A stretch of 32,000 nucleotides of DNA, from NCBI GenBank assembly GCA_963843145.1, contig CAWJJC010000020.1, positions 449,171 to 481,170 on the forward strand. The letters are read 5' to 3'. The notes beneath the pieces are model-generated. The model was not told the DNA's origin. It searched no databases and worked only from the letters and a program-made list of their open reading frames with translations. This stretch comes from an uncultured delta proteobacterium (GTDB lineage Bacteria > Desulfobacterota > RBG-13-43-22). This document shows, in pieces, positions 8,364 to 24,444 of this stretch. Made by a program: the position numbers and the translations under genes. Each line of letters begins with the position of its first letter. Position 1 is the first letter of the stretch.

Positions 8364-10710
8364 TTACTTCTTTTCTTGCAGCGCCCGCCAGATCCGTTCG
8401 GAGGTGATGGGCAGTTCGTTGATGCGTACGCCGGTGGCGTCGTAGATGGCATTGAGGATGGCCGGGATGACGGGCATGATGCCTCCTTCGCCGACTTCCT
8501 TGGCCCCGTAAGGACCGTTGGGCTCGCCGCTTTCGATGATCAGGGACTGGATCGCCGGCACGTCCAGGGCCGTGGGGATCTTGTATTCTCCCAGGGAGGC
8601 GTTCAGGATCTGGCCCTTATCGTTGAACTTCACTTCTTCGAACAGGGACTCGCCCAGCCCCATGGAGACCGAGCCCTCCATCTGGCCTTCCACCTGCGTC
8701 CGGTTGATGGCCAGGCCGCAGTCGTGGGCGTCGGTGACCTTGTCCATGGTCACCTCGCCGGTTTCCAGGTCCACAGTCACCTCGGCTATCATGGCCGAAC
8801 AGCCGTAGGCCGGGGAGGTCCCCACCGCCGCGCCCTTGAAGGACCCGCCCAGCTTGGGGGGCTTGTATTTCCCGGTACCCACGATGGTCCCCTTTTTCAG
8901 GTAGGCCAGGCGGGCCGCTTCCTTGAAGGTCAACTGGGTCTCCTGCGGCGGATCGCCCCAACCGCGGTGTTCCTTGATGTACCCGATCCGCAGGGCCTCG
9001 AAAGTCCGGCGTTTGCCCTTTGAAGGCGATCAGACCGTTTCGGACCATAATCTCCTCCACAGGCACGTTCAAGGTCTCGGCGAGCACTTCCAGCACCTGG
9101 CGCTTGGCGTCCTCGGCCGCCTGCTTGGTGGCGTGGCCGGTCATCAGGGTCTGGCGGCTGGAGTAGGCCCCCAGGTCCACCGAATAGTCCGTGTCGCCCG
9201 AGACGATCCGCACATCCTCGAGCCGCACCCCCAGGGCCTCGGCGGCGATCATGGCAAAGGCCGTATCCGACCCCTGTCCGATTTCGGCGCTGCCGGTCTG
9301 TACCAGGGCCGTTCCCCCGTCTTCCGCAAGTTTGATCACCACCGTGGCATGATAGGTGTCGGAACGGTAGATGGGGTAACCGGCCCCGGAGACAAAGAAC
9401 CCGCAGGCCATGCCGATGCCCTTGCCCTTGGGCAGCTTCCCCTTTTTTAATTTCCAGTCGGAGTTATCGCGGATGGCCTCGATGCACTCTTTCATGCCCA
9501 GACTGCTCATATCCAATTCGTTGCAGGTGATGTCCCCGGTTTCCATGATGTTTTTCAGACGCATTTCCAAGGGATCCAGGCCCAGCTCCTTGGCGATCAG
9601 GTCCAACTGCTGCTCGAAACCGGCTCGAGCGGCCACCCCGCCGTGGCCCCGCTGGGCCCCACAGGCCGGCTTGTTGGTATAGAGCCGGAATCCGTCATAT
9701 TTCATATTAGGCAGCTTGTAGGGGCCGCCCAGCAATGATCCGGCGTAATAGACGGTGGCGATGCCGAAACTGGAGTAGGCCCCTCCCTCCAGAAAACACT
9801 CGTTGTGCAGGGCCATCAGGGTCCCGTCCTTTTTCACGCCGGTCTTGAAAGTGTGAAAGAACTGATGCCGGCCGCGGCTGTGAAGAAAGACCTGCTCCCG
9901 GGTAAAGCCCATCTTGACCGGCTTGAGGGTCTTCATGGACAGCAGGCAGCTCAGCAGTTCCAGGGCGGAAGCCGCCGCCTTGGGCCCGAACCCGCCCCCC
10001 ACGTAGGGCTTCACCACCCGGACCTTGCCGATGGGCAGTTTCAGCACCATGGCCACGGTCCGCTGCACATAGTGGGGGACCTGGGTGGAGGTGTGGAGGG
10101 TCAAGTAGCCCTGCCCGTCGAAGACGGCCGTGCAGGCGTTGGGTTCCAGAAAGGCCGCGTCCTGCCTTTTGTTGACGAATTTGTGCAGGTGGATAAAGTC
10201 GCATTGAGCGAAGGCCGCTTCCACGTCCCCGAACTCCTGATGCACTTCGGCGCAGATGTTGCGGGGAAAATGCTCGTGTACCAGGGGCGCGCCTTCGGCC
10301 ATGGCGGCCACGGGGTCGAAGACCGCCGGGAGCTCCTCGTATTCCACCTTGATTAAACCCAGCGCTTCCAGGGCGGTTTCCTGGTCAATGGCCGCCACGG
10401 CCGCCACTTCATCTCCTACGTAGCGGACCTTGTTCACCGCCAAAATAGTCTCGTCGTAGCGGGCCGGGGAAACTCCGTAGGGAATGATCTCCAGGTCTTT
10501 AGCCGTCACCACGGCCTTGACCCCCGGAAGGGCCTTGGCTCGGGAGGTGTCGATGTTCAGGATGCGGGCATGGGCCAGAGGGCTTTGCAGGATAGCCCCG
10601 TAGAGCTGGTTGGGGAATGTCAGGTCATCGGCGTAAATCGCCTGGCCGGTGGATTTGGCCGGGGCATCCAATCGCGGCGCCCGGCTGTTGATCACGCTGT
10701 ATTGGCTCAT
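8364..10710 (-). pseudogene. Xanthine dehydrogenase-family molybdopterin-binding large subunit (4-hydroxybenzoyl-CoA reductase alpha-like), interrupted by a 1-nt insertion
   Basis: The N-terminal ~565 residues of ORF 8617..10710 read as a typical aldehyde-oxidase/XDH large subunit. After ...VRNGLIAFKG the frame degenerates into an Arg/Gly/Pro-rich reading. The true C-terminus (...GAKEVGEGGIMPVIPAILNAIYDATGVRINELP) is in ORF 8364..8933 in the adjacent frame, which stays open upstream to 9029. The span is 2347 nt, i.e. 3n+1. Confidence 0.85.
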
Positions 10711-10760
10711 AGGTAATTCCTTCCTTATGAATGGATCTGGGCTGGAATGCGGGACGGTCT

Positions 10761-11228
10761 TCAGCCGTCCGCTTTAACGGAGGCGATGGCCTCCACGATC
10801 TTCTGGTATCCGGTGCAGCGGCAGAGATTGCCGCTGATGGCTTCCCGGATCTCTCTTTCCGTGGGCGCGGGATTTTTATCCAGCAGGGCCTTGCTGGTCA
10901 GGATCATACCCGGACTGCAGAATCCGCATTGGATGGCACCGAGATCCACAAAGGCCTGCTGCAGGGGATGCAGTTTTTCCCCATCGGCCAACCCTTCAAT
11001 GGTCGTGATTTCCTGCCCGTCGGCTTCGACCGCCAGGACCAGACAGGAATTGACCGGCTTTCCGTTCAACAAAACCGTACAGGAGCCGCAATCCCCCACG
11101 GCGCACCCTTGCTTGGTCCCGGTAAGACGTAAATTTTCCCGCAGCACCTGGGTCAGGGTCTTATTCACCGGGATGACCAGATCGTATTCCTGGCCGTTCA
11201 CTTGCAAATTAATGGTCATCTTCTTCAT
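10761..11228 (-). CDS. (2Fe-2S)-binding small subunit of the XDH-family enzyme (CoxS/HcrC-like)
   Basis: Motifs GCAVGDCGSCTV (plant-type 2Fe-2S) and QCGFCSPGMI...CRCTGY (second cluster). 155 aa. Confidence 0.92.
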   Translation of the reverse strand: MKKMTINLQVNGQEYDLVIPVNKTLTQVLRENLRLTGTKQGCAVGDCGSCTVLLNGKPVNSCLVLAVEADGQEITTIEGLADGEKLHPLQQAFVDLGAIQCGFCSPGMILTSKALLDKNPAPTEREIREAISGNLCRCTGYQKIVEAIASVKADG

Positions 11229-11238
11229 CTGCGCTCTC

Positions 11239-12132
11239 CTAAGCCGTTTTCATGAGCTGTTGATAGGCGGACATCAGGGTCCGGACGGTTAAAATCTCGA
11301 TCAGGGCCCGGCGGTACTCGGCCGATCCGCGATGGTCGTCAATGGGCTTACCATCCCGGGCGGCCGCCCGGGCCGCTTCCAGGAACAAGGAATCCCCTGA
11401 TCCCACGGGCTTTTCGCCTTTCAGGATCTTTTCCGCCGATTTGGCCCGGAGCGGGGTGGGCCCCACGGCCCCCAAGGCAATTCGCGCCTGCCGGATGGAT
11501 CCCTCCGGACCCAATTCCAGAAAAGCGGCCACATTGACCAGGGAGATCTCCAGGGCCTTGCGGGAACCCAGCTTCAGGTAGGCGCTGCCGCAGGGACCTT
11601 CGCAGGAGGGGATATAGATTTGGGATAGAATTTCTTTGGGTTTGATGGAGGTTTTCCCGGGACCTTTGAAAAACTTCTCCACTTCCAATTCCCGCTCCCC
11701 GTCCTTGTTCTTTAAAATCAATTGCGCGCCTAAAACCATTAGAGGCGGGGCGAGATCCGAGGCCGGCCGGGCGGTAACGATATTTCCGCCCAGGGTGGCC
11801 CGATTGCGAATCAGGGGAGATCCCAACCGTCCGGCCCCCTGGGCCAGAACGGTCAAATGTTCCTGAACCAGTTCCGATTCCGCCAGTACGCTCGCGGTAA
11901 CCAACGGACCGATGGAGATCCCTTTCCCTTTCTTAGGAATAATCTCGTTGAGGCCTTTGATCTTATTCAGGCTTACCACCTGCTGGGGGGCCAGGACTTT
12001 TTTCTTCAGGTTGACCAGGAGATCGGTCCCGCCGGCCAGGAGCTTGGCCTTGGCCCCGAATTCCTCCAACAGGGCGCAGGCCTCCCGCAGGCTTTTGGGG
12101 GCCTGGTAGTCAAATTTGGGCAGTAACATCAT
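11239..12132 (-). CDS. FAD-binding medium subunit of the XDH-family enzyme (CoxM/HcrB-like)
   Basis: Motifs LLAGGTDLLVNLK, ATLGGNI and the C-terminal CO-dehydrogenase flavoprotein pattern DDHRGSAEYRRAL. AGGAGGA lies upstream of ATG. Confidence 0.9.
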   Translation of the reverse strand: MMLLPKFDYQAPKSLREACALLEEFGAKAKLLAGGTDLLVNLKKKVLAPQQVVSLNKIKGLNEIIPKKGKGISIGPLVTASVLAESELVQEHLTVLAQGAGRLGSPLIRNRATLGGNIVTARPASDLAPPLMVLGAQLILKNKDGERELEVEKFFKGPGKTSIKPKEILSQIYIPSCEGPCGSAYLKLGSRKALEISLVNVAAFLELGPEGSIRQARIALGAVGPTPLRAKSAEKILKGEKPVGSGDSLFLEAARAAARDGKPIDDHRGSAEYRRALIEILTVRTLMSAYQQLMKTA

Positions 12133-12255: not shown

Positions 12256-12609
12256 TCAATCGGGCCAATGGCTTAATTCCAACTCAATAGGTAATTCGGC
12301 GGCCCAAGCTTTCAAGAGCAGGGCATTGGCTTTGGCCTGGGCGATCCGCAAGGCCTGGATTTCTCCGGGGTCGATTCGTTCCGCCAGAGGAAAAACCAAG
12401 CAACTGAAATAATGCCAGTCTTTATACCCCCCAAAGGGCGTACCGTCAAGAGGACGATTGCCGGCTTTGATCCCCCGGGCAATCTGCAGGTCTACCGGCA
12501 CGACCACATGATACCGCTGCCCGTCCGGAGAAATCCCAATATACCCTTCGTTGCCGCATCGGTCGTCCAAGGTGGCCCGGAGAATGTCGTTGAAGTCGAT
12601 GGTCATCAT
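12256..12609 (-). CDS. Hypothetical protein (117 aa), no family recognised
   Basis: The ORF starts 10 nt after the ThiS-like stop. Amino-acid composition is ordinary and it is co-directional with its neighbours. No clear SD. Confidence 0.5.
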   Translation of the reverse strand: MMTIDFNDILRATLDDRCGNEGYIGISPDGQRYHVVVPVDLQIARGIKAGNRPLDGTPFGGYKDWHYFSCLVFPLAERIDPGEIQALRIAQAKANALLLKAWAAELPIELELSHWPD

Positions 12610-12618
12610 TATAATTAT

Positions 12619-12819
12619 TTATCCACCAAAGGCCGGATGGATCAACTCCAGCACATCCCCTTCTTTCAACGGGGTCGCTTCGTAATCTTTCTGATGGATA
12701 AACCGGTGGTTCAACTCCACAATCATGTGGACCTCAAATTCCTGATTGCTGCTGATGACCGAGGAGACCGTGCTGTTCTCCGGCAGTTCCTCCTGAAATC
12801 CGTTTAAAATAATCCGCAT
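12619..12819 (-). CDS. ThiS/MoaD-family ubiquitin-like small protein ending in Gly-Gly
   Basis: 66 aa. MRIILNG...PLKEGDVLELIHPAFGG with a terminal GG directly before the stop, which is the classic sulfur-carrier beta-grasp signature. Confidence 0.75.
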   Translation of the reverse strand: MRIILNGFQEELPENSTVSSVISSNQEFEVHMIVELNHRFIHQKDYEATPLKEGDVLELIHPAFGG

Positions 12820-12869
12820 GGCCCAACCCGAAATATCCGGTAAAGACTTTTTGCCTTTAGTTAACCTAC

Positions 12870-13505
12870 TTAAATAGTTGACGTTTCGTCTTTTCGTTCC
12901 GCCGAACCCGTTCTAGCCAATGACTCCCGAACCAAACGCCTGGCCGTGGGGGTCCGAAACCAGGTCTTGGATCCCTCCAGGAGAAACCGGCGGCCCTCCT
13001 GCAAATAATTCTCGCCGAACATCTTTCGGTAACGCTGCAGGCTTTCTTCACCGAAGCGGTCCAGGCGATCCGCCTCCATGACCAGGATGGCCTCCGGATC
13101 CGGCAGGGCCTGAATAGCATCCGGTAGATCATGAACGGCGATTATCTTTAGAACCAATTCTTTTTTGCCTTTCGGAAAATCAAGGGGATCCAAAATTTCA
13201 CGGGCCAGGACAGCGCCTTGAACCATATGTTCCTTTAGACTGCGGGTCTCCTTTTTTTTCTCCGGCGGGGCCTGCACGAAATCATCAAAGGAAACCCGGC
13301 TCCAGCCGATGTCGTGGAGCACCAGGGCGGTCAGGACGACCTCCGGATCCCCTTTTTCCTCATTCAACAAGGCCTTACCATATGCGATGGCCCTGAGGGT
13401 ATGATCCCAGTCATCGGGCCGCCCCTGGAGCAAATAGGGCCGTGCCTTCTCCTTAAGCTGAATTTCCCAGGGTGTTAAGGAACCCGCTGACTTTTCACCC
13501 GACAA
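12870..13505 (-). CDS. HD domain-containing phosphohydrolase
   Basis: H...HD motif (DHTLRAIAY...ALVLHDIGW). The TTG start overlaps the upstream UPF0261 gene stop by 11 nt. Confidence 0.8.
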   Translation of the reverse strand: MSGEKSAGSLTPWEIQLKEKARPYLLQGRPDDWDHTLRAIAYGKALLNEEKGDPEVVLTALVLHDIGWSRVSFDDFVQAPPEKKKETRSLKEHMVQGAVLAREILDPLDFPKGKKELVLKIIAVHDLPDAIQALPDPEAILVMEADRLDRFGEESLQRYRKMFGENYLQEGRRFLLEGSKTWFRTPTARRLVRESLARTGSAERKDETSTI

Positions 13506-14769
13506 GCTTTTCTCTTTTCCTATCCCTGGATTTCAAAAAGGGACTCTCGGTAATTTCCCGAAAAGTCCGCACCACTTCTTCGGCAAATCGGGGATCATTG
13601 ATGTGAGCCGGGATTTCCTTCACTCTGATCCCCGGGGGGGCGCTTCGTTTAATCGCCTCGATAAACACCCGGTCGACGGCCAGATCGAAAAAGGATTTTC
13701 CCGGACTGTCAAAGACCGAATATCCTCCGGAGGGCAGCAGGAGCGCTGTGGGGCCGGCGGCCAACTTTAATTTTTCCGCCACCACCCCGGCCAATCGTTT
13801 CATCTCCTGGGCGTTGGTCCGAACCACACAAATAGCCGCATTATGCACATGGATCGGACGGTTTTTATAGCGAGGCGGGAGGGTTTCCGGCGGTCCGGTG
13901 ACGATAAAATCGATGTTGCCCGGGATGAGGATCGTCGGCAGCCCTTTGGTTAAAGCCGCTTCCAGACGGTGGGCCCCGGCGTCATAGGACCCTTTGAAAA
14001 GATGGTCCACCAATTCATGAAGCGAGACCTCGATGACGGCTTGCGGTTCCCCCTCCACCACCAACTCCTCCAGAGCCTGGCCCCCGGAGCCGACGGTGTG
14101 AAACACCGCCAATTCCCAGCCCGACTTTTCCAGGTCCGTTCTGAAATGACGGATACAGGCTTCGGTAGTCCCCAGGGTGCTTACGGCGATCAGCGGCGTC
14201 TCAAAATGTTTCTTGCTCCGAGGGGTGAACCGGACCATCCCAGCCATAGCCCCGGCCGCCTGAGACAACACCTGCCGAGTCATGCGGTTGAGCCCCACTA
14301 AATCCACCACCGAATGGTACATGAGGATATCTTTACTCCCCACGAACGGCCGGGTATCCCGGGAAGCCATGGTGGAAACCATGAGTTTGGGAAACCCGAA
14401 AGGCAAGGCCCGCATGGCGCTGGTGCCGAGAGTGGTCCCCATGGATCCCCCCAGGCCGATGATACCGTCGATTTCTTCCTGATCGTAGAGGTCCCGGACC
14501 ACCTTGATGGCCCCCTGCACCATGGTCCCCATGGCCTTGCCTTCATGCCCCAGGCGGCGCAGGGCGGCCAGGGAACTCCCGGCCTTGCGGGCCAGGGCGC
14601 TGGCCGGAATATCCGCCGGGCTGGTCGCGCCACTCAAGATTCCCCCGTCAATCACCAGAACATTCACCTCGGCCTCCCTCAGTCGCTCTCTCAGGAAAGC
14701 GACCTCGGATCCTTTAGTATCCAGGGTGGCCAGAATGGCTACGGTGGGCTTGGCCTTTGTTTTTTTCAT
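13495..14769 (-). CDS. Tm-1-like ATP-binding protein (UPF0261 family), copy 1
   Basis: The track ORF extends to 14874, but ATG at 14769 (MKKTKAKPTVAILATLDTKG) has AGGAAGGA upstream. Family signature GLGGSMGTTLGTSAMRALPFGFPKLMVSTMASRDTRPFVGSKDILMYHSVVDLVGLN. Confidence 0.9.
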   Translation of the reverse strand: MKKTKAKPTVAILATLDTKGSEVAFLRERLREAEVNVLVIDGGILSGATSPADIPASALARKAGSSLAALRRLGHEGKAMGTMVQGAIKVVRDLYDQEEIDGIIGLGGSMGTTLGTSAMRALPFGFPKLMVSTMASRDTRPFVGSKDILMYHSVVDLVGLNRMTRQVLSQAAGAMAGMVRFTPRSKKHFETPLIAVSTLGTTEACIRHFRTDLEKSGWELAVFHTVGSGGQALEELVVEGEPQAVIEVSLHELVDHLFKGSYDAGAHRLEAALTKGLPTILIPGNIDFIVTGPPETLPPRYKNRPIHVHNAAICVVRTNAQEMKRLAGVVAEKLKLAAGPTALLLPSGGYSVFDSPGKSFFDLAVDRVFIEAIKRSAPPGIRVKEIPAHINDPRFAEEVVRTFREITESPFLKSRDRKREKLVG

Positions 14770-14819
14770 GGTGTCCTTCCTCATAACCTCGCAAAAAGTC
14801 AAAAAACGACTTTCTGCTC

Positions 14820-14847
14820 GGCGGGGGAGGGCTTCCCCTCCCCCGCC
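14820..14847. repeat. Perfect 12-bp G/C hairpin GGCGGGGGAGGG-cttc-CCCTCCCCCGCC
   Basis: Read directly. It lies between the ubiX stop (14894) and the UPF0261 copy-1 start (14769). It shares the GGGGAG(A)GGG core with the repeats at 15528-15659. An 8-bp AT hairpin (CATTTGAA/TTCAAATG) lies next to it, immediately after position 14847. Confidence 0.5.
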
Positions 14848-14893
14848 ATTTGAAATGAATTCAAATGGTCCCACCCCTACCCCAGCCCGGCGC

Positions 14894-15511
14894 TTAATCG
14901 CGCTCGGGCTGCTGACGGACCTCTGGCGAGTCCATCACACCCGCCCAGCGTTTAAAATCCGGAACTTCGATATCGAAGAGGTCCAAAATTTTTCCGATGC
15001 TGTGCCGGATGATATCTTCCAGGTCTCTGGGTCGATGGTAAAAAGCCGGTACGGGCGGAAAGAGGATCGCCCCCATATCGGTCAACCGCAGCATTAATTC
15101 CAAGTGTCCCCGGTGCAGCGGGGTCTCCCGCACCGCCACCACCAGCTTGCGCCGTTCTTTCAAGGTCACATCCGCCGCTCGAATCAGGATGTTGACGTTG
15201 AAGGAGTTGGCCAGGGCCGAAAGGGTTTTAATGGAACAGGGCAGGATCACCATGCCCCTCGTCCCTTTAAAAGACCCGCTGGAAACCGGAGCGGCGATAT
15301 CGTCGAGATCATAGCAGACCGTGGCCATTTTTTTTACCTGCTCCACGGCATAATCCGTCTCCAGTTCAATCGTGCGTTCGGCCGCCCGACTGAGGATCAA
15401 GTGGGTGGCGATGTTTATTTTCTGCAGGATCTCCAGCAGCCGGATGCCGTAAATGGCCCCCGAGGCCCCGGAGATGCCGATGATTAGTCCCTGGTTGGGC
15501 ATAGATACCAC
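14894..15511 (-). CDS. ubiX: UbiX-family flavin prenyltransferase
   Basis: N-terminal GISGASGAIYGIRLLEIL, then the PCS.KTLS and LKERRKLVV..RETPL patterns typical of UbiX/Pad1. The start is GTG at 15511 or ATG at 15502. Confidence 0.92.
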   Translation of the reverse strand: MVSMPNQGLIIGISGASGAIYGIRLLEILQKINIATHLILSRAAERTIELETDYAVEQVKKMATVCYDLDDIAAPVSSGSFKGTRGMVILPCSIKTLSALANSFNVNILIRAADVTLKERRKLVVAVRETPLHRGHLELMLRLTDMGAILFPPVPAFYHRPRDLEDIIRHSIGKILDLFDIEVPDFKRWAGVMDSPEVRQQPERD

Positions 15512-15527
15512 ATTTCCTTTAAATCGA

Positions 15528-15659
15528 CCCCCTCCACCCTGCTTTTAGGGGAGAGGGAACAATCAAATCTATCTCAGGTTGTAATAGTACGTTCCCTAGG
15601 TGTATTTCATTTTTTACTCCCTCTTACCCATCGTGGGGGAGAGGGTTGGGGTGAGGGGG
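15528..15659. repeat. Two G/C-rich hairpin repeats sharing GGGGAGAGGG (15548-15557 and 15636-15645)
   Basis: Each 10-mer is preceded by a partly complementary CCCTC(C/T)... arm. The second copy lies inside the 3' end of the LpdD-like ORF. Confidence 0.5.
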
Positions 15660-16035
15660 TTCCAGCCTTTTCAATGATCTTCCGGGTCAACCGCTCTGTC
15701 ATATTTACGATGGTCTGGATCTCTTCCGGGTTCAAATTATCCCAATGGATACCGGCGGTGACCACCACATTTTTCTTAAGGGCCGAGGCCAATACCTCCG
15801 ATACCCTCCTGGCGGTTACATCCTCCTTATGCCCCAACAAGGTCAGCACCGAAGAAGTCGCGCTGGTCTTCTTCTTATCCCGCAAACTGGGACGGGGCAG
15901 CGCCAGGGCTACGGCCCCGATATGGGGGTGGGTCCCGCCCCAGACGGCGACCAATAAATCCCGCCCCAGGGATTTTACCAAGGCCTCCAATTTAAAACGC
16001 CCCTCTTTGATGGAAACGGAAATAGGCTTCATCAT
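15607..16035 (-). CDS. lpdD: LpdD-like prenylated-flavin (prFMN) chaperone family protein
   Basis: The pattern LLVAVWGGTHPHIGAVA ... HKEDV ... VVVTAGIHWDNLNPEEI matches my recollection of Lactobacillus plantarum LpdD (GGTNPHIGDV ... TAGIH). It sits between UbiX and other UbiD-pathway genes. The last ~16 codons are repeat-derived. Confidence 0.65.
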   Translation of the reverse strand: MMKPISVSIKEGRFKLEALVKSLGRDLLVAVWGGTHPHIGAVALALPRPSLRDKKKTSATSSVLTLLGHKEDVTARRVSEVLASALKKNVVVTAGIHWDNLNPEEIQTIVNMTERLTRKIIEKAGTPSPQPSPPRWVRGSKK

Positions 16036-16084
16036 GGATATCGGCGTTCCCCCTGCCGGCCCCCCGGTCCAGAAAGGTTGGACC

Positions 16085-17323
16085 TCAGGGCTTGAGGACT
16101 CTGATCATAGCCTCCACCGCGGCTCGGGCGAAGGCGGGATCATTTAAATAGGCCTCAACGGTCTGAATGGTGATTTCGGGTTTACAATGCTGCCGGAGGG
16201 TTTCGGTAAAGAACCGATCCTCTTCCGGATCATAGGCGGCGCTGCCGGGGGCATCCGCCGTAGACCAGCCCCGGGTAGGGATCAGCAGGATCACCGGTCC
16301 CTGGGCCTGATTCAGTTTCCCGGCCATTACTTCGGCCACTTGTTTTAATTCATCCGTACTCAAACGAAGCCAGGTGCGGTCCTTATCCAGATCGTATTTG
16401 CGCCGCTGGGCGTAATCCGGTTTATAGTTTTTCCGGCTGGGGCTCATGAAATTCACCCCGCTGGGGGCGATCACTTGCGGGATACCCAACTTTCCGGCCG
16501 CCTCCAGCCGCTTCGATCCGGCGGCCCGCATGCCGCCCAGGAGCTGTTCGCCCACCCCGCCGGGGGCCAGATCCACCACGCCGTCGAAATAGCCTTCGGC
16601 GATCATCTCTTCCATCGCCCGATCGCAGATGCCGGCGGCGTGAAAACCGATGACCTGGAAACCGGCCTGGGTAAGACCGGCCTGGATGAGGTGAGCGCAG
16701 GGATCGCAAGGTCCGAACATGGACAGGGCGATCTGCTTTTGGGCCGATCCTCTGGCCGCCTCCGCGGAGAACCGAGGTTCCTGGGCCATGGCCCTGACCG
16801 CCCGGGCGGCCCGATTAAGCACATTTTTCAAGTGGGGACTCAACCCGGAGAGCTCAATAACTGTGTGAAAGAGCATGATGTCGCCGGTCCCGATGTAGCG
16901 GGTGGAGAGCCCCGGCAGGGCGGCGCTGGAGGAAACCATGACTTTGGGAATTCCAAAGGGCAGCGCGCGCATGATGTTCGTGGCGATCATGGAAAGTGTG
17001 GCCCCGCCCAGACCAAGGACGCCGGCCAACCGGCCTTCCTCCAGCAGTTTCCGGGCGATCTTGACCGCCCCCTGGGTCATATCCCTGGTAATACCGGTCC
17101 GATCGCGGGAGGCGCGGACGGCTTCAATCGTAGTTCCTCCTTGCAAAGCGACTTCGTCCGGCAGGATATCCCCCTTCTCCCTGGCCGCCGCCCCCATGGA
17201 CAAATCCATGGTCAGGGCCCGGCCGCCCAGCGCCCGGATCTGATCCTGCAAATAAAGGGTTTCCTGCGCCTTGGTATCCAAGGTTGAAATAATCAGAATG
17301 GCTGAGTCTATGGAATTTATCAT
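16085..17323 (-). CDS. Tm-1-like ATP-binding protein (UPF0261 family), copy 2
   Basis: MINSIDSAILIISTLDTKAQE... and GLGGATLSMIATNIMRALPFGIPKVMVSSSAA...GDIMLFHTVIELSGL. It is clearly paralogous to 13495-14769. Confidence 0.9.
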   Translation of the reverse strand: MINSIDSAILIISTLDTKAQETLYLQDQIRALGGRALTMDLSMGAAAREKGDILPDEVALQGGTTIEAVRASRDRTGITRDMTQGAVKIARKLLEEGRLAGVLGLGGATLSMIATNIMRALPFGIPKVMVSSSAALPGLSTRYIGTGDIMLFHTVIELSGLSPHLKNVLNRAARAVRAMAQEPRFSAEAARGSAQKQIALSMFGPCDPCAHLIQAGLTQAGFQVIGFHAAGICDRAMEEMIAEGYFDGVVDLAPGGVGEQLLGGMRAAGSKRLEAAGKLGIPQVIAPSGVNFMSPSRKNYKPDYAQRRKYDLDKDRTWLRLSTDELKQVAEVMAGKLNQAQGPVILLIPTRGWSTADAPGSAAYDPEEDRFFTETLRQHCKPEITIQTVEAYLNDPAFARAAVEAMIRVLKP

Positions 17324-17476: not shown

Positions 17477-19136
17477 TTATTTTCCCGCCTTGACCCACTC
17501 TTCCAGTTGCGTCTTCAAAACCTTCTTATCGACCTTGCCTGAATCCCCTACCGTCGGCAGGGCCGGGACCAATTCCAAACGTTCGGGCAGCTTATAGGCG
17601 GAAATCTTCTTCTCTTTCAAAAAGGCCTTCATCTCTTCAAAGGTGAGGGTCTGCCCGGCCTTGGGAACCACGTAGGCGCAGGCCCGCTCCCCCATCTCCC
17701 GATCCGGGTAACCGACGACGGCCACACTGGCTACCGCCGGATGACCGTTCAGCAGACCTTCGATTTCCGCCGGGTAAATATTCTGGCCGCCGCGGATGAT
17801 CATGTCCTTGGCCCGTCCCAGGATCCAAAGGCAGCCCTGGTCGAACTTAACGATGTCGCCGGTGGTGGTCCAGCCGTCTTGATCGAAAACCGTGGCCGTC
17901 AATTCCGGATCCCGGTAATAGCCGGCCGGGGCATGGGGGCCCCGGAACCAGAGGATCCCGGGTTCGCCGTCCGGAACCGGGTTGCCCTGTTCGTCCTTAA
18001 GGACCACCTTGTTGCCCGGAAGCATCCGGCCCACTGTCCGGCGACGCAGGTCCTTGGAGTCATCGACCGAACAACCGGACACGGAGCCCACGTCCTGGGT
18101 ACCCAGGTCACTGGTAATGGCCGCCCCGAAGGCCTTTTCGGCCTCTTCCGCCACCTGGGGCGACAGGTAACCGCCGGCGGACCGGATGAACCGCAGGGAG
18201 CTCAAATCATATTTCGTGGTATCCGCCTCGAGCATCCGCACCAGGTGGGTCGGCACCACCCCGATGGCCGTGGCTTTTTCCTTTTCGATCAGGGCCAGGG
18301 CCGCCTCCGGGTTGAATTCTTCCAGCATCACGGTTTTGGCCCCGGCCAGGGGGGCCGCAAAATAGGTCAGGGTCCCGGCGGCCCCGCCGGCATGGGGGGC
18401 GATGGCCATGGTGATATCGTCTTTGGTCAGCTTCCAGATAGCCACCCGGCCCTTGGAGGTACAGACCCGGGGGGCGATGGGCCACTCAACCAGCTTGGGC
18501 AGACCGGTGGTCCCGGTCGTACTGGTCAGCAGACCGATGTCCCACTTGGGGTTGAAGCGCCGAGCATTCAGCAGTGCCTTCGTCAATCGGTTTAGCCAGG
18601 GATTCCTCCGCCAGTTTGATCAGGGAATAGGTATTTTTCGGGGCCTCCGGGGGAACCGTCTCCTCAAAAAGAAAAATGTGCTTTAAAAACGGAAAACGGA
18701 CCTGCAGTCCCTTATACATTTCCAGGTAATTAAAATTGCGGTAGATATAACAGATGATCACCGCCTCGGCCTGGGTCTTTTCGACGAAGTGCTCCAACTC
18801 GCGCTCCCGCAGATAGGGGTAGACGGTCAGGGAAATGAGCCCGGCCCGTTCGCTGGCGACGCGGGCCAGAAAGCCATAGACGCTGTTAGGGGATTGAATA
18901 ATGATCCGGGCATCCTTGGGGATGCCCATTTGGACAAAGTTCTGGGCGATCCCGTCAATCAGCCGTTTGGCCTGCTTCCAGGTGAGCCGGTATTTGGAAT
19001 CCACCAGGGCTTCGCGGTCCCCGAATTCCCGCACATTGCGTTCGTAAAAATCATAAAAGGTTTCGTCGGTCCAGTACCCGTCGCGGGTGTATTCATCGAC
19101 CATTTCCTGCGTGTAGCGTATGGGTTTCACTATCAA
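17477..19136 (-). pseudogene. AMP-dependent aryl-CoA ligase/synthetase (EntE / 4-hydroxybenzoate-CoA ligase-like), interrupted by a 1-nt insertion
   Basis: The N-terminal part (ORF 18486..19136) reads sensibly to ...LAEESLAKPIDEG and then degenerates. The adjacent frame (ORF 17477..18586) carries the AMP-binding P-loop LLTSTTGTTGLPK and the rest of the adenylate-forming fold to the C-terminus. The span is 1660 nt, i.e. 3n+1. Confidence 0.85.
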
Positions 19137-19663: not shown

Positions 19664-21070
19664 CTAGAGGCCGAATTCCTTCCAGCGGCTTTCAACTTGC
19701 TTGACCATATCCGGGTCCAGCGCAATCGGGATGGGTTTCTCCTTCCAGTCGTAGGGAATGGTGGCGTCCAAAAGCAACCGGCCGGTGATGTCCCGGGAAT
19801 CGATGGGCAGCGATGGATCCAACGGCGTGGATCGCCCGCGCTTGATAACCTGGCTGCGGTTGGGCTGGAAGCGAAAGCTCAGGGCGTACATGACCCGGGG
19901 AATGTCCCAGGCGTCGATGTCGTCGTCCACCACGATGACGGTCTTGAGACCGTAGGCCCCCATTTCGGTGGAGATGGCCGCGGTCAGCACCTGATCGGCG
20001 TGGCCCGGGTACATCTGCTTCAGGGAAATAATGGCCAGGAAGCGGCCCGATCCCTCGGGCGGACAATATACCGATTTAACCCCCGGAATCTTCATGGCAG
20101 TCAATTGTTGCCAGAGGGTCGACCCGTAAGACAAGGCCATGGTCATGTGCGTATCGGTCACCGCCCGGCCAACCGTGGTCCCCCAGAGTATGGGGTTGTT
20201 CCGGAAAGTAACGCATTGGACGTCAATAAAATTCCGGGGGTCCGTGCCCACCCCTGAATAGTAGCCGGTGTATTCCCCAAAGGGGCCTTCCGGCAAAAAT
20301 TTTTCCGCATCCACCAATCCCTCGATGACGATCTCGGCGTGGGCCGGGATGGGCAAGTCCACCGTCTCCCCCTTGACCACTTCAATGGGGGCCCCGGCGA
20401 TGGCCCCGGCCACATCGTACTCGGAAACGAAGGCCGAGAGCCGGGCCGCGCCCAAGACAAACAGCAGCGGATCCCCGCCGATAACCGAGGCCACCGGCAT
20501 GGGCTTTTTCAGGGCCTGGTATTTCTTGAGCATAATATCGGCATGTTTGCCCTTGATGAATTGGGTGCCGACCTTGTCCTTCTCCAGCAATTGGGAGCGG
20601 TAGGTCCCCAGGTTGATCCAGCCGGAGTCCGGATCCTTGGTGATGATGTAATGGGCCGTGCCGATAAAGCGCCCGCCGTCCTTGGGATACCATTTGGGCA
20701 CCGGGAACTTGAAGAGATCGATATCGCTCCCCTTCATGATGTTTTCCTTGCAGGGGGCCTGGTCTCGTTCCACCCAGACCGGCGGGATCAGTTTATCGCC
20801 CACCTTGACCCATTGCTCCATGAGCCCCACCAGGCTGGTTTCTCTGGGCATGCGCATGAGGATCGCTAACCGCTGAGTGGTGGTGCAGACGCTGGTCATG
20901 ACCGGGCTGCTATAGCCCTTCACGTTTTCAAAGAGCAAGGCCGGACCAAGTTTTTCCTCATTCAGTTTGGCGATGTGAGATAACTCCAGGTTCCAATCCA
21001 CTTCCGCCTTCACCCGATGCACTAATCCGTCGGGTTCCCCTATGGCAATAAAATCTCTCAGATCTTTCAT
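19664..21070 (-). CDS. UbiD-family (de)carboxylase, phenylphosphate carboxylase subunit-like
   Basis: 468 aa with MKDLRDFI...LLFENVKGY...EGPFGEYTGYY... The UbiD fold signature runs throughout. AAGGAGG/GGAGA lies upstream of ATG at 21070. Confidence 0.9.
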   Translation of the reverse strand: MKDLRDFIAIGEPDGLVHRVKAEVDWNLELSHIAKLNEEKLGPALLFENVKGYSSPVMTSVCTTTQRLAILMRMPRETSLVGLMEQWVKVGDKLIPPVWVERDQAPCKENIMKGSDIDLFKFPVPKWYPKDGGRFIGTAHYIITKDPDSGWINLGTYRSQLLEKDKVGTQFIKGKHADIMLKKYQALKKPMPVASVIGGDPLLFVLGAARLSAFVSEYDVAGAIAGAPIEVVKGETVDLPIPAHAEIVIEGLVDAEKFLPEGPFGEYTGYYSGVGTDPRNFIDVQCVTFRNNPILWGTTVGRAVTDTHMTMALSYGSTLWQQLTAMKIPGVKSVYCPPEGSGRFLAIISLKQMYPGHADQVLTAAISTEMGAYGLKTVIVVDDDIDAWDIPRVMYALSFRFQPNRSQVIKRGRSTPLDPSLPIDSRDITGRLLLDATIPYDWKEKPIPIALDPDMVKQVESRWKEFGL

Positions 21071-21312: not shown

Positions 21313-22398
21313 CTAAAATTTCCTGCCCTGCATCAATCCGGCCACAATCTGTTCCATGGCCGTGGCCTTGGGCTTTACCACCGGCTCCACCTTTTTCTGG
21401 CTCCAGACCGTTTCTGGCCGGGCCTGAAGGATGCGGACATTGCCGCCGGCCGGCAGGTCCTTATCCACGGCCCACTCAATATCCATCTGTTTGCCGTAAT
21501 GGGCCTCGATCAACTTGCCGTACCGGGCCAGTTCCCTGATGTCTTTGTCGATGACCGATTGAACCTCCTTGCGTTCCTCTTCAACTTCCATCTCCACCAG
21601 TTGGTTGCGTTCGGGATTGGTAGTGAAATACATTTCCTTGCGGGAAATGGTCCTCTTGAGGATCTCCAGGTTGATTTTATCCACCACGAACTGGTCGGGA
21701 GTTACCGACCCGCTGACCACTGACTCCCCCACCCCCCAGTTGGCATCGATGACGATGACCGAAACGTCCCCGGAAGCCGGATTCAAGGTGAACATGACTC
21801 CGGCCGTAAAGGAGTTGACCATCTTCTGGATGCCCACGCTGATCAGGACCTTCTCATGGTCAAAGCCCATCTTGATCCGATAGGTGATGGCCCGGGGGGT
21901 AAACAGGGAAGACCAACATAACCGGACCTTGTCGATGATTTCTTCCTGGGTGCGGACAAACAGGTAGGTCTCCTGCTGCCCGGCAAAGCTGGCCCCGGGC
22001 AGGTCCTCGGCCGTGGCGCTGGATCGAACGGCCACCGGCATCAGGGGCAGTTGCAGCTCCCGCCATAAATGGTTATAGCTATCCCCGATAGCCGTGGCGA
22101 TCTCCTCCGGAATCGGGGTGCTTTCGATCAAGGCCCGGACAAATTGACTGGCGGACTCCACCCCGTCCATATCCTGCGGATCCAGACCCCGGAGCCGATC
22201 AAAAATCGGTTTCTTCAATCCCTGTTGGTTCAAATAGACGTCATAGGCTTCGGTGGTTATGGCATAACCGGGAGGGACCGGAATGCCAGCCCGGAGTAAC
22301 TCCCCCAGACTGGCATTCTTCCCGCCCACCAAAGGCAAAAAGCTCAGGTCGCATTCTTCGAACCGTAAAATATAAGGGCTTTTTACTTCCTGACCCAT
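21313..22398 (-). CDS. PPDK_N (ATP-grasp) domain protein, phenylphosphate synthase beta subunit (PpsB)-like
   Basis: 361 aa with LVGGKNASLGELLRAGIPVPPGYAITTEAY and ...VAVRSSATAEDLPGASFAGQQETYL, the nucleotide-binding domain of PEP synthase / PPDK enzymes. It has no His-domain of its own. It starts 3 nt after the upstream gene stop. Confidence 0.85.
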   Translation of the reverse strand: MGQEVKSPYILRFEECDLSFLPLVGGKNASLGELLRAGIPVPPGYAITTEAYDVYLNQQGLKKPIFDRLRGLDPQDMDGVESASQFVRALIESTPIPEEIATAIGDSYNHLWRELQLPLMPVAVRSSATAEDLPGASFAGQQETYLFVRTQEEIIDKVRLCWSSLFTPRAITYRIKMGFDHEKVLISVGIQKMVNSFTAGVMFTLNPASGDVSVIVIDANWGVGESVVSGSVTPDQFVVDKINLEILKRTISRKEMYFTTNPERNQLVEMEVEEERKEVQSVIDKDIRELARYGKLIEAHYGKQMDIEWAVDKDLPAGGNVRILQARPETVWSQKKVEPVVKPKATAMEQIVAGLMQGRKF

Positions 22399-24246: not shown

Positions 24247-24444
24247 CTTTGCTTCTCCTTTTTGGTGGTGGGTAAAAATTAAAAGCAAAATACCTCTCCC
24301 TAAACTAAAGAACTATGAAGAAAAAAAATCACCTCCTTTTCGTGTTTTTCGGAGTCCCTCAGGGATTGCAATTTCAGCGTCGGGATGCTTGCGGATAGGC
24401 GCCAGGCCTCTGGGAGCTAGCTTAAAGGGTAAAAAAAAACCCGG

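What the first reader, a model, noticed from the sequence alone, without database searches (positions are those of the whole stretch)
13495..17323. UbiX + LpdD-like chaperone bracketed by two Tm-1-like (UPF0261) ATP-binding paralogs inside a UbiD carboxylase pathway
Gene order on the minus strand is UPF0261 (16085-17323), LpdD-like (15607-16035), ubiX (14894-15511), UPF0261 (13495-14769), and then an 11-nt-overlapping HD hydrolase.

As far as I know, UPF0261/Tm-1-like proteins are functionally uncharacterised in bacteria. Their usual genomic partner is a TIM-barrel PEP-hydrolase-like protein, and none is present in this window. Instead, two diverged copies are embedded in the prFMN cofactor-supply module (UbiX prenyltransferase plus LpdD-type chaperone) of a UbiD enzyme. 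The block lies next to PEP-utilizing-family phosphotransferases.

The block occupies the position where canonical phenylphosphate systems carry PpsC, the second UbiD-type subunit, the phosphatase PpcC and the small PpcD.

Hypothesis (inference): the ATP-binding paralogs, possibly with the HD hydrolase, form an undescribed accessory or energising component of a UbiD-type aromatic carboxylase or of prFMN maturation.
Basis: partly seen in the sequence, partly recalled or inferred. Interest (0 to 1): 0.75.

Follow-up and report, generated by a model that had tools for sequence, protein, structure and literature searches.

The report
MarK-like kinases in anaerobic phenol operon
Two diverged copies of a little-studied ATP-binding protein family, whose only characterised member phosphorylates phenolic compounds, are conserved and substrate-induced parts of the operon that sulfate-reducing bacteria use to break down phenol without oxygen, and their role there has never been assigned.

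Summary
On the minus strand lie UPF0261-A (16085-17323), an LpdD-like prFMN chaperone, UbiX, UPF0261-B (13495-14769) and an HD hydrolase that overlaps B by 11 nt. They sit inside a phenol-to-benzoyl-CoA operon.

The statement that UPF0261 is uncharacterised in bacteria is out of date. MarK (JBC 2025, PDB 9MPY) is a stand-alone UPF0261 kinase that phosphorylates phenolic OH groups using ATP and releasing ADP.

The linkage is strongly conserved. In 80 species-level Thermodesulfobacteriota genomes, copy A follows the aryl-CoA ligase in 69 of 71 loci. PpsAB, UbiD and UbiX are almost always present.

Published Desulfatiglans anilini proteomes show the A ortholog induced about 50-fold on phenol. A paralog in the aniline cluster is induced on aniline and 4-aminobenzoate. 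Neither was ever interpreted.

Copy B keeps MarK's ATP and phenol-pocket residues. Copy A keeps the ATP site, but its pocket is rebuilt and acidic. A does not co-evolve with UbiD or the ligase.

Best reading (about 0.4): these are MarK-type phosphotransferases acting on the pathway's aryl-phosphate chemistry. prFMN maturation (about 0.2) and a carboxylase-subunit role (about 0.12) remain rivals.

This is a new variant of a known kind, worth testing experimentally.

The parts
22402..24288 (-). PpsA-like phenylphosphate synthase subunit (PEP-utilisers mobile His domain)
   Evidence: PF00391 at 7e-26; NF006152 at 1010 bits. Present together with PpsB in 53 of 55 related loci.
21313..22398 (-). 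PpsB-like ATP-binding subunit (PPDK_N)
   Evidence: PF01326 at 1e-115.
19664..21070 (-). Single UbiD-type carboxylase, PpcB-like
   Evidence: UbiD_N, UbiD and UbiD_C domains. TIGR02724 phenylphosphate carboxylase beta at 484 bits, above the cutoff of 469.
17477..19136 (-). Aryl-carboxylate-CoA ligase (probably 4-hydroxybenzoate-CoA ligase), split into two ORFs by a 1-nt insertion near 18579
   Evidence: AMP-binding N-terminal half at 18486-19136, and C-terminal half plus AMP-binding_C at 17477-18586. The gene is intact (552 aa) in relatives. The indel was located against L007.
16085..17323 (-). UPF0261 subfamily A: ATP site kept (D16 T17 K18), substrate pocket rebuilt and acidic. This is the universal, ligase-coupled copy.
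   Evidence: Pfam. 9MPY at E = 9e-45. AF2 model with pLDDT 86 matches only Tm-1 and MarK, TM 0.7-0.8. Pocket analysis. Synteny 69 of 71.
15607..16035 (-). LpdD-like prFMNH2-binding chaperone
   Evidence: PF21758 at 133 bits. LpdD PDB chains 8pzh, 8p4w and 8po5 at E = 2e-10. LpdD function from PMC10865409.
14894..15511 (-). UbiX flavin prenyltransferase
   Evidence: PF02441 at 4e-40; TIGR00421 at 243 bits.
13495..14769 (-). UPF0261 subfamily B: canonical MarK-like copy, 39% identical to MarK, with the ATP motif and the His-rich phenol pocket kept
   Evidence: 9MPY at E = 2e-87 over residues 7-406. Pocket residues G195, T196, H219, GxGG, F283, H302, H304 and N305 are conserved. Orthologs at 70% identity or more occur only in the window clade.
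12870..13505 (-). HD-domain phosphohydrolase, start overlapping the stop of B by 11 nt
   Evidence: PF01966 at 2e-13. Only remote characterised relatives. HD or NUDIX genes alternate at this kind of position in related loci.
12619..12819 (-). ThiS/MoaD-like 66-aa ORF with a C-terminal GG
   Evidence: PF02597 at 39.8 bits; TIGR01683 at 47.9 bits. Conserved in L007, L008, L010, L011 and L013.
12256..12609 (-). Conserved 117-aa ORF of unknown family that precedes the reductase genes
   Evidence: No Pfam or NCBIfam hit. Conserved upstream of the Hcr FAD subunit in several clades.
8367..12132 (-). 4-hydroxybenzoyl-CoA reductase-like FAD (11239-12132), 2Fe-2S (10761-11228) and Mo (8367-10710) subunits. 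The Mo subunit has a frameshift near 8965-9002.
   Evidence: Pfam. TIGR03194 at 695 bits. Frameshift.
24508..25413 (+). Divergent LysR-type regulator
   Evidence: HTH_1 plus LysR_substrate domains. Conserved at this position in most related loci.

Best explanation
The block is the accessory half of the anaerobic phenol-to-benzoyl-CoA operon typical of Thermodesulfobacteriota. UbiX plus the LpdD-like protein supply prFMN to the single PpcB-type UbiD.

The two UPF0261 proteins are MarK-family nucleotide-dependent phosphotransferases dedicated to this pathway.

- Copy B keeps every MarK ATP-site and phenol-pocket residue. It is most likely an ADP-forming aryl-OH kinase acting on a phenolic intermediate. 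Phenol to phenylphosphate is the simplest case, run in parallel with the costlier AMP-forming PpsAB. 4-hydroxybenzoate or its CoA ester are alternative substrates.
- Copy A keeps the ATP site, including the Lys whose acquisition raised MarK's activity 1600-fold, but has an acidic, His-poor pocket. It is co-transcribed, and often translationally coupled, with the aryl-CoA ligase. It probably acts either as a specialised partner of a B- or C-type copy, or on a common, non-aromatic ligand of the phosphate-handling steps.
- The HD hydrolase, replaced by NUDIX in other clades, is a phosphohydrolase. It either makes DMAP for UbiX or removes the aryl phosphate.

Shown here: family membership, residue conservation, synteny and induction. 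Inferred: substrates, direction of the reaction, and heteromer formation.
For: - MarK precedent. It is a UPF0261 protein and a homodimer, works without a TIM-barrel partner, uses ATP and releases ADP, and phosphorylates phenolic OH groups. About 25% of genomes with an aromatic kinase carry both MarK-type and Pps-type (AcvAB/HpeHI) kinases. HpeHI is a homolog of phenylphosphate synthase.
- Similarity to MarK. B hits 9MPY at 2e-87 and A at 9e-45. The A model matches only the Tm-1 and MarK folds.
- Residues. D14-T15-K16 is at least 93% conserved in subfamilies A, B and C. B keeps H219, H302, H304, F283 and GxGG. A carries S219 (85% of members), D225, D302 and D304.
- Synteny. The ligase-then-A order holds in 69 of 71 loci, PpsAB is present in 53 of 55, UbiD in 60 of 62 and UbiX in 42 of 46.
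- Expression in D. anilini. H567DRAFT_02057 (UPF0261) gives 0 / 5e7 / 5e7 / 2.5e9 on 4-aminobenzoate, aniline, benzoate and phenol. The ani-cluster paralog 03869 gives 5.4e9 / 6.5e8 / 0 / 0 and lies next to a ligase.
- Missing subunits. The pathway in these organisms lacks PpcA, PpcC and PpcD, and its energetics are an acknowledged puzzle.
Against: - PpsAB is present and active in D. anilini extracts, so a second phenol kinase is not obviously needed.
- Copy A, the only universal copy, lacks the His residues that MarK uses to bind the phenol. In most orthologs even H219 is Ser.
- B and C copies were found within 10 kb in only about half of the loci.
- B sits beside UbiX in the window clade, and B/C pairs sit beside a flavin reductase and a riboflavin kinase elsewhere. 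This also fits a cofactor role.
- MarK did not phosphorylate guaiacol, so an unactivated phenol may be a poor substrate.
- No biochemical data exist for any member of subfamilies A, B or C.
Confidence: 0.4

Rival explanations
1. prFMN supply or maturation. The UPF0261 proteins, together with UbiX, LpdD and the HD or NUDIX hydrolase, would form an ATP-dependent module that makes, matures or inserts prFMN into the UbiD carboxylase under anoxic conditions.
For: - In the window clade, B lies directly between UbiX and HD, and A lies directly before LpdD.
- In L087 and L088 a C-B pair follows a Flavin_Reduct gene (the PhdC family) next to a CTP-dependent riboflavin kinase and a HAD hydrolase.
- A's distance matrix tracks that of UbiX (r = 0.86, partial r 0.64-0.73).
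- The oxidant and route for prFMN maturation in strict anaerobes are unknown.
Against: - The D. anilini paper places its UbiX-like gene in the phe cluster, not the ani cluster, yet the ani cluster encodes its own induced UPF0261 next to a ligase.
- A's invariant neighbour is the ligase. UbiX sits at variable positions, up to 8 kb away.
- L021 and L068 carry ligase, A and a Pps-like dikinase but no UbiD or UbiX within 10 kb.
- LpdD and PhdC act without any ATPase.
- The only kinase step conceivable in this route is prenol to DMAP, and the HD or NUDIX genes already offer a DMAPP-to-DMAP route.
- The correlation with UbiX is no stronger than with other backbone genes such as LysR, CBS and Hcr.
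Confidence: 0.2
2. Carboxylase subunit. A, with or without B, would be a stoichiometric subunit of the PpcB-type carboxylase. It would replace PpcC/PpcD by stripping the phosphate from phenylphosphate at the active site, possibly passing it to ADP or AMP.
For: - A is universal in clusters that have one UbiD and no PpcA, PpcC or PpcD.
- The gene order UbiD, ligase, A holds in 56 of 62 loci.
- A retains its nucleotide site, and its acidic pocket could hold a metal-phosphate.
- No phenylphosphate carboxylase activity could be measured in D. anilini extracts, and two recombinant UbiD subunits did not convert phenylphosphate.
Against: - A does not co-evolve with UbiD (r = 0.23, partial r 0.03-0.13), whereas UbiD and the ligase co-evolve tightly (r = 0.88).
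- Within one A clade, two UbiD types only about 50% identical are exchanged without any change in A's pocket signature.
- Returning the phosphate to a nucleotide would remove the driving force for carboxylation. This is a thermodynamic inference from MarK running forward with ATP to ADP.
Confidence: 0.12
3. A function downstream of carboxylation and linked to the ligase. One version: A phosphorylates 4-hydroxybenzoyl-CoA (or 4-aminobenzoyl-CoA) to give the Hcr-type reductase a better leaving group. Another version: A recycles the ligase by-products AMP and PPi.
For: - The ligase-then-A order is near-universal and often overlapping (median gap 22 nt).
- The order ligase, A, (orf117), Hcr occurs in L021, L041, L047 and L059.
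- The partial correlation of A with HcrFAD is high, 0.54-0.81.
- MarK prefers para-carbonyl phenols, which resemble 4-hydroxybenzoyl-CoA.
- A B-type UPF0261 also follows a PaaK-type aryl ligase in L090.
- 03869 is most abundant on 4-aminobenzoate, a substrate that bypasses carboxylation.
Against: - Thauera 4-hydroxybenzoyl-CoA reductase needs no ATP (established knowledge).
- An extra ATP would worsen an already tight energy budget.
- A does not co-evolve with the ligase (r = 0.39, partial r about 0.1).
- A's acidic pocket is poorly suited to an anionic CoA ester.
- There is no precedent for UPF0261 acting on AMP or PPi.
Confidence: 0.15
4. A is a non-catalytic ATP-binding paralog (a pseudo-kinase or sensor), or is simply hitch-hiking in the operon. 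Only B- and C-type copies would have enzymatic roles.
For: - A has lost H219 (85% Ser), H302, H304 and the GG motif.
- A evolves with the cluster backbone rather than with any single enzyme module.
Against: - A shows very strong purifying conservation: 71% mean column identity, with more than 100 invariant positions including new A-specific motifs such as AAG[VI]CDRAME.
- The protein is abundant and induced on phenol.
- It is retained in 80 species.
Confidence: 0.08

Closest known systems
MarK (Saro_1862) of Novosphingobium aromaticivorans, PDB 9MPY, a UPF0261 multiple aromatic kinase
   Same: - The same two-domain UPF0261 fold.
- The same ATP motif D-T-K, including the activity-determining Lys.
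- Stand-alone, with no TIM-barrel partner.
- Embedded in an aromatic catabolic cluster that proceeds by phosphorylation and then carboxylation.
- B shares MarK's His-rich phenol pocket and is 39% identical to it.
   Different: - MarK belongs to an aerobic lignin-monomer pathway with a biotin carboxylase and a NagD-type phosphatase. Here the setting is a strictly anaerobic phenol pathway with a prFMN/UbiD carboxylase, and a Pps-type dikinase is already present.
- There are two or three diverged paralogs instead of one homodimer.
- MarK's H348, which binds the ketone, is Phe in B and Val or Ala in A.
- A's pocket is rebuilt: S219, D225, D302, D304.
Thauera aromatica phenylphosphate synthase (PpsABC) and phenylphosphate carboxylase (PpcABCD)
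   Same: - PpsA-like and PpsB-like genes.
- A PpcB-like UbiD that passes the equivalog model.
- UbiX.
[quoted passage not shown]
   Different: - The window has no second UbiD-like subunit (PpcA), no HAD-type phosphatase (PpcC), no small PpcD, and no CBS-type PpsC.
- In their place are UPF0261-A and -B, LpdD and HD.
Desulfatiglans anilini phe and ani clusters (Xie & Müller 2018; Xie et al. 2020)
   Same: - Same gene set and order: UbiD, a 552-aa ligase, a 403-aa UPF0261, UbiX, Hcr-like genes and PpsAB.
- The UPF0261 proteins are induced by the substrate.
   Different: - The D. anilini phe cluster has no LpdD-like gene, no B copy and no HD gene next to UbiX.
- The authors left the UPF0261 genes unassigned.
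Tm-1 / bacterial UPF0261 + TBST (PF09370) two-gene systems
   Same: The same UPF0261 N- and C-terminal domains and the same ATP-binding residues.
   Different: - No TBST/TIM-barrel partner in the window or in any related locus examined.
- Tm-1 acts as a virus-replicase binder, not as a metabolic enzyme.
LpdD (L. plantarum) and PhdC prFMN helpers
   Same: The window protein at 15607-16035 is an LpdD homolog placed next to UbiX. In related loci a PNPOx-like protein takes that position instead.
   Different: Neither LpdD nor PhdC is reported with an associated ATP-binding partner.

Membership tests
UPF0261 / MarK-type aromatic kinase | Two-domain architecture: UPF0261 N-terminal plus UPF0261_C | tested here: met
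   Both copies match PF06792 and PF23189 at E values of 1e-46 or lower. Both give full-length alignments to 9MPY. The A model reaches TM 0.7-0.8 against Tm-1 and MarK only.
UPF0261 / MarK-type aromatic kinase | ATP-site motif D14-T15-K16, where K16 gives a 1600-fold higher rate in MarK | tested here: met
   A carries D16 T17 K18 and B carries LDTKG. The motif is 93-100% conserved in subfamilies A, B and C.
UPF0261 / MarK-type aromatic kinase | Phenol-binding pocket: G195, T196, H219, F283, I285, H304 | tested here: inconclusive
   B keeps G, T, H, F, V and H. Window A keeps H219 but has P196, D302 and D304 with CD in place of GG, and 85% of A orthologs have S219. The feature is therefore met for B and not met for A.
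UPF0261 / MarK-type aromatic kinase | ATP-to-ADP phosphorylation of a phenolic OH; homodimer | not testable with these tools
   This needs enzyme assays and oligomer analysis.
Tm-1-like UPF0261 + TBST pair | An adjacent or co-occurring TIM-barrel TBST/PF09370 partner | tested here: not met
   No PF09370 hit in any window ORF scanned, nor in L001, L003, L005 or L087-L092. The rest of the genome could not be searched.
Thauera-type phenylphosphate carboxylase PpcABCD | A PpcB-type UbiD subunit | tested here: met
   TIGR02724 at 484.3 bits against a cutoff of 468.95.
Thauera-type phenylphosphate carboxylase PpcABCD | A second UbiD-like subunit (PpcA), a HAD-type phosphatase (PpcC) and a small PpcD | tested here: not met
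   There is only one UbiD ORF in the window, and one per related locus. No HAD-domain ORF was found. The small ORFs in the gaps gave only a ThiS hit. D. anilini likewise lacks PpcD, and its PpcC-like protein was not detected.
Phenylphosphate synthase PpsABC | PpsA (mobile His domain), PpsB (PPDK_N) and a CBS-type PpsC | tested here: inconclusive
   PpsA and PpsB are present. No stand-alone CBS protein occurs in the window operon, although one follows A in 27 of 46 related loci.
LpdD prFMNH2 chaperone | PAC_bac fold, homology to LpdD, and adjacency to UbiX/UbiD | tested here: met
   PF21758 at 133 bits. LpdD chains at E = 2e-10 over residues 10-133. It lies 95 nt upstream of ubiX. prFMNH2 binding itself cannot be tested here.
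UbiX flavin prenyltransferase | Match to the UbiX subfamily model | tested here: met
   TIGR00421 at 243.5 bits against a cutoff of 108.9.

The most novel reading that the evidence does not exclude
UPF0261-A, together with B- or C-type paralogs, would form a previously unrecognised ATP/ADP-linked aryl-phosphate phosphotransferase system. It would be an obligatory component of phenol and aniline carboxylation in strictly anaerobic Thermodesulfobacteriota, doing the phosphate-handling work of the missing PpcC, PpcD and PpcA subunits, or providing a one-ATP phenol kinase. That would explain how these energy-limited organisms afford the pathway. The remodelled acidic pocket of A would then define a new catalytic subtype of the UPF0261 fold.
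Probability: 0.3. Interest if true: 0.85.

Novelty: new variant of a known kind. Interest (0 to 1): 0.68.

Why it matters
Anaerobic phenol activation in sulfate reducers, iron reducers and syntrophs has two acknowledged gaps. Their clusters carry only one UbiD subunit and none of the Thauera phosphatase or small subunits. The calculated cost, up to four ATP equivalents, also seems too high for their energy budget.

The only universally conserved, substrate-induced gene of unknown role in these clusters is UPF0261-A. Its family has just been shown to phosphorylate phenols, which turns an old open question into a small set of direct enzyme assays.

The finding would also extend the newly defined MarK family in three ways: from aerobic lignin catabolism to strictly anaerobic prFMN-dependent carboxylation, to aniline degradation, and to a second and third pocket type. 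Finally, it bears on efforts to reconstitute UbiD-type carboxylases for CO2 fixation onto aromatics.

Tried and rejected
- **Promoter and terminator scan of 8000-25500.** Counts matched the shuffled expectation, so operon boundaries could not be drawn from it.
- **Literature searches.** Searches linking Tm-1-like or UPF0261 proteins to UbiD or phenol found nothing. Searches on the origin of DMAP for UbiX were uninformative. The Nudix/ThiM route to DMAP therefore rests on my own recollection.
- **HD protein.** It has only remote similarity to YedJ and BH2835 (E about 0.02), so no function could be transferred.
- **PNPOx-like UbiX neighbour.** It showed no sequence-level match to a solved PhdC. 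The analogy rests only on the Pfam class.
- **ATP regeneration (phenylphosphate + ADP to ATP).** I considered this and set it aside. MarK runs forward with ATP to ADP on a more acidic phenol, so the reverse reaction would consume the energy needed to drive carboxylation. This is inference.
- **Pocket signature against UbiD, Pps and ligase type.** The signature follows clade and Pps type, not UbiD type. This helped reject a tight carboxylase-subunit model but cannot separate the remaining hypotheses.
- **Coordinates of the A model.** They are not returned by the tool, so I could not verify that the A-specific Asp and Cys residues cluster in space.
- **Second structure job and the 1.84-billion representative search.** Not used, because neither provides genomic context.

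Full report
**1. Observation**

The minus strand between 8.4 and 24.3 kb carries one long co-directional gene array. Pfam and NCBIfam give the following order:

- PpsA-like, 22402-24288.
- PpsB-like, 21313-22398.
- A single UbiD, 19664-21070. It passes the phenylphosphate-carboxylase-beta equivalog model at 484 bits against a cutoff of 469.
- An AMP-forming aryl-CoA ligase, 17477-19136.
- UPF0261 copy A, 16085-17323.
- An LpdD-like protein, 15607-16035. It hits PAC_bac at 133 bits and LpdD crystal chains at E = 2e-10.
- UbiX, 14894-15511.
- UPF0261 copy B, 13495-14769.
- An HD hydrolase, 12870-13505, overlapping B by 11 nt.
- A ThiS-like small ORF, 12619-12819.
- A conserved unknown ORF, 12256-12609.
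- The three subunits of a 4-hydroxybenzoyl-CoA-reductase-like molybdoenzyme, 8367-12132.

A LysR regulator is divergent at 24508-25413. The two UPF0261 copies are 32% identical. No TIM-barrel/PF09370 protein was found.

**2. What the family is now known to be**

The premise that UPF0261 is uncharacterised in bacteria is out of date. MarK (Saro_1862) of Novosphingobium aromaticivorans is a stand-alone homodimeric UPF0261 protein. It phosphorylates the phenolic OH of acetovanillone, vanillin, 4-hydroxybenzaldehyde and related compounds, using ATP and releasing ADP. A Lys at position 16 raises the rate 1600-fold. Its crystal structure, 9MPY, shows the phenol held by G195, T196, H219, F283, I285, H304 and H348.

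MarK is the non-homologous functional analogue of the AcvAB/HpeHI dikinases, which are homologs of phenylphosphate synthase. About a quarter of genomes that have an aromatic kinase carry both types.

Copy B matches 9MPY at E = 2e-87 and is 39% identical to MarK. Copy A matches at 9e-45 and is 27.5% identical. An AlphaFold model of A (pLDDT 86) matches only Tm-1 and MarK, with TM 0.7-0.8.

**3. Conservation of the linkage**

Close homologs of A (55-100% identity) are abundant in Thermodesulfobacteriota. Three sampled contexts all show UbiD, ligase and A together with PpsAB, UbiX, Hcr-like genes and LysR. These were Desulfoferula mesophila, an uncultured Desulfatiglans and Desulfomonile.

A scan of one genome per species returned 80 loci. 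I scored synteny by tblastn with the window proteins:

| Feature | Loci with the feature |
|---|---|
| Ligase directly upstream of A (median gap 22 nt) | 69 of 71 |
| UbiD directly upstream of the ligase | 56 of 62 (elsewhere in the locus in four more) |
| PpsA plus PpsB | 53 of 55 |
| UbiX | 42 of 46 |
| LpdD-like or PNPOx-like gene next to UbiX | 33 of 46 |
| Second UPF0261 gene | at least 22 of 46 |

Two loci, L021 and L068, have a divergent Pps-like dikinase, the ligase and A, but no UbiD or UbiX within 10 kb. The refutation criterion "no conserved linkage" is therefore clearly not met. However, the invariant neighbour of A is the ligase, not UbiX or LpdD.

**4. Expression**

The D. anilini phe cluster (H567DRAFT_02049-02059) has the same order and the same gene lengths as locus L003. 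In the supplementary proteome of Xie et al. 2020, 02057 is annotated "Uncharacterized protein, UPF0261 family" (403 aa). Its peak areas are 0, 5.0e7, 5.3e7 and 2.5e9 for cells grown on 4-aminobenzoate, aniline, benzoate and phenol.

A second UPF0261 protein, 03869 (411 aa), lies in the aniline (ani) cluster beside an acyl-CoA synthetase. Its areas are 5.4e9, 6.5e8, 0 and 0.

The authors drew these genes as uncharacterised and did not discuss them. They also noted three things:

- PpcA, PpcC and PpcD equivalents are absent from the cluster.
- Phenylphosphate carboxylase activity could not be measured.
- It is unclear how a sulfate reducer affords up to four ATP equivalents for this pathway.

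Full-text searches found no paper that connects UPF0261 or Tm-1-like proteins with UbiD or anaerobic phenol degradation.

**5. Three subfamilies with different pockets**

I aligned 240 sequences against MarK and Tm-1. Three groups emerged:

- **Subfamily A** is the ligase-linked copy.
- **Subfamily B** contains the window B copy and mainstream relatives at about 50% identity.
- **Subfamily C** lies beside LysR or is paired with B.

All three keep the ATP motif (D14-T15-K16, E19) and the glycine-rich loop.

B keeps MarK's pocket: G195, T196, H219, GxGG, F283, H302, H304 and N305. The ketone-binding H348 is replaced by Phe.

C keeps H219 but lines the pocket with F196, I197, F302, F/W303, Y304 and F306. 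That would suit an unsubstituted aromatic ring.

A is rebuilt. H219 is Ser in 85% of members, although the window copy keeps His. T196 is Pro, GG224/225 becomes C/G-D, H302 becomes D/E, H304 becomes D, and T246-E247 becomes GG. A also carries subfamily-specific invariant motifs such as AAG[VI]CDRAME. A is thus under strong constraint but cannot bind a phenol in the way MarK does.

Orthologs of the window B copy (70% identity or more) occur only in the window clade. Within that clade B or HD is sometimes lost (L010, L011, L013), whereas A never is.

**6. Co-evolution**

I compared distance matrices for proteins extracted from the 80 loci.

- UbiD and the ligase evolve as one tightly coupled module (r = 0.88). 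The module exists in two deep types about 50% identical, and it is uncoupled from the rest of the cluster (r = 0.1-0.3).
- A correlates poorly with UbiD (0.23) and with the ligase (0.39). The partial correlations are 0.03-0.16.
- A correlates well with UbiX (0.86), the CBS protein (0.93), PpsB (0.70), HcrFAD (0.89) and LysR (0.80).
- Within a single A clade that has an identical pocket signature, either UbiD type can be present.

This argues against A being a co-adapted subunit of the carboxylase or of the ligase. It does not discriminate among Pps, UbiX and Hcr as partners.

**7. Contexts of B-like relatives**

None of the six sampled relatives at about 50% identity has a TIM-barrel neighbour.

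- Two (L087, L088) form C-B pairs downstream of a Flavin_Reduct gene. They lie next to a CTP-dependent riboflavin kinase and a HAD hydrolase, immediately upstream of LysR, PpsA, PpsB and UbiD.
- One (L091) is a pair beside LysR.
- One (L090) follows a PaaK-type aryl-CoA ligase in a cluster with aldehyde:ferredoxin oxidoreductase.
- Two are isolated.

LpdD is a prFMNH2 chaperone, and PhdC, a flavin-reductase-family protein, is a prFMN maturase. Neither needs ATP.

**8. Inference on mechanism**

Shown here: family membership, intact nucleotide sites, a MarK-like pocket in B, a remodelled pocket in A, conserved operon membership, and substrate-specific induction.

Inferred: substrates and direction of the reaction.

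The simplest extrapolation is that these proteins work on the aryl-phosphate chemistry that defines the pathway. B would be an ADP-forming aryl-OH kinase. MarK forms the ester of the more acidic acetovanillone with ATP to ADP, so phenol plus ATP giving phenylphosphate plus ADP should be feasible, at half the cost of the PpsAB reaction.

The reverse reaction, regenerating ATP, would remove the driving force for carboxylation. I consider it unlikely.

A's ligand is probably not the aromatic hydroxyl. It may act as a partner of B or C. MarK's ATP and phenol sites are about 25 Å apart and may work in trans. Alternatively, A may act on a common phosphate-bearing ligand.

The HD gene, or NUDIX in other clades, could provide DMAP from DMAPP for UbiX, or could hydrolyse an aryl phosphate.

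I put the aryl-phosphotransfer reading at about 0.4. The rivals are:

| Reading | Probability |
|---|---|
| prFMN supply or maturation | 0.2 |
| Ligase- or Hcr-linked function | 0.15 |
| Carboxylase subunit | 0.12 |
| Non-catalytic | 0.08 |

**9. Comparison and novelty**

The block works most like the MarK/AcvF kinase-phosphatase pairing and like the Thauera Pps/Ppc system. It is a member of neither in full. B passes the sequence tests for a MarK-type kinase, and A fails the pocket test. The carboxylase fails the PpcA/C/D tests, and the TBST partner of classical UPF0261 systems is absent.

The association of UPF0261 paralogs with anaerobic phenol and aniline carboxylation is visible in published supplementary data but has never been interpreted. 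I rate it a new variant of a known kind.

**10. Caveats**

- Two genes of the window operon are frameshifted: the ligase near 18579 and the Mo subunit near 8965-9002. Close relatives have intact genes, so sequencing indels are likely, but decay of the operon cannot be excluded.
- Counts of second copies are lower bounds, because the flanks were limited to 10 kb.
- Mirror-tree correlations are confounded by shared phylogeny.
- All functional assignments for subfamilies A, B and C are computational.

Noticed in passing
window 17477-19136 (-), indel near 18579-18598: The aryl-CoA ligase is split into two overlapping ORFs by a single extra A (AA in the window, A in the 95%-identical L007). Relatives encode an intact 552-aa protein.
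   Followed up: yes
window 8367-10710 (-), near 8965-9002: The Mo subunit of the 4-hydroxybenzoyl-CoA-reductase-like enzyme is also frameshifted (frames -3 then -1). Two frameshifts in one operon suggest long-read indel errors or the start of pseudogenisation.
   Followed up: partly
window 12619-12819 (-): An unannotated 66-aa ThiS/MoaD-like ORF ending in GG lies between the HD gene and the reductase genes. It is conserved in L007, L008, L010, L011 and L013. It may relate to molybdopterin or sulfur-carrier chemistry.
   Followed up: partly
window 12256-12609 (-): A 117-aa ORF with no Pfam or NCBIfam match is conserved directly upstream of the reductase FAD subunit in several clades (for example L041, L047, L058 and L059, where it directly follows UPF0261-A).
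   Followed up: partly
L007-L086 (related loci): UbiD and the ligase behave as one exchangeable module with two deep types about 50% identical. The module swaps independently of PpsAB, UbiX, LysR and UPF0261-A (r = 0.88 within the module, 0.1-0.3 to the rest).
   Followed up: yes
L001 814-1989; L003 3534-4748; L048 4283-5470; L087 5796-7004; L088 3881-5092 and others: A third UPF0261 subfamily (C) keeps H219 but has an aromatic, hydrophobic pocket (F196, I197, F302, F/W303, Y304, F306). It lies beside LysR or is paired with a B-type copy. It is a candidate binder of unsubstituted phenol.
   Followed up: partly
L005 2431-2943 and 17 other loci; L087 5147-5626; L088 3103-3582: The gene next to UbiX alternates between an LpdD-like protein and a PNPOx_N-like FMN-binding protein. 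In L087 and L088 a Flavin_Reduct gene, a CTP-dependent riboflavin kinase and a HAD hydrolase sit beside the UPF0261 pair. This looks like a variable flavin/prFMN helper set.
   Followed up: partly
L001 11244-12473 and many loci: A NUDIX or HD hydrolase and a CBS-domain protein (probably the PpsC equivalent) follow UPF0261-A in other clades. The window clade has HD but no stand-alone CBS protein.
   Followed up: partly
window 19137-19663: There is an unusually long gap of about 527 nt between UbiD and the ligase, with no convincing ORF. A similar gap of about 370 nt occurs in L007. It may be regulatory or an internal promoter.
   Followed up: no
window 4234-6300 (-): A 688-aa ORF has no Pfam match and lies in a stretch with strong AT skew (0.29 at 5001-6000).
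   Followed up: no
window 26720-30577 (+): A cNMP-binding/CBS/DUF294 nucleotidyltransferase is followed by a fusion of acetyl-CoA hydrolase/transferase with a GNAT acetyltransferase. The window start (380-1949) carries two TPM-domain phosphatase-like genes.
   Followed up: no
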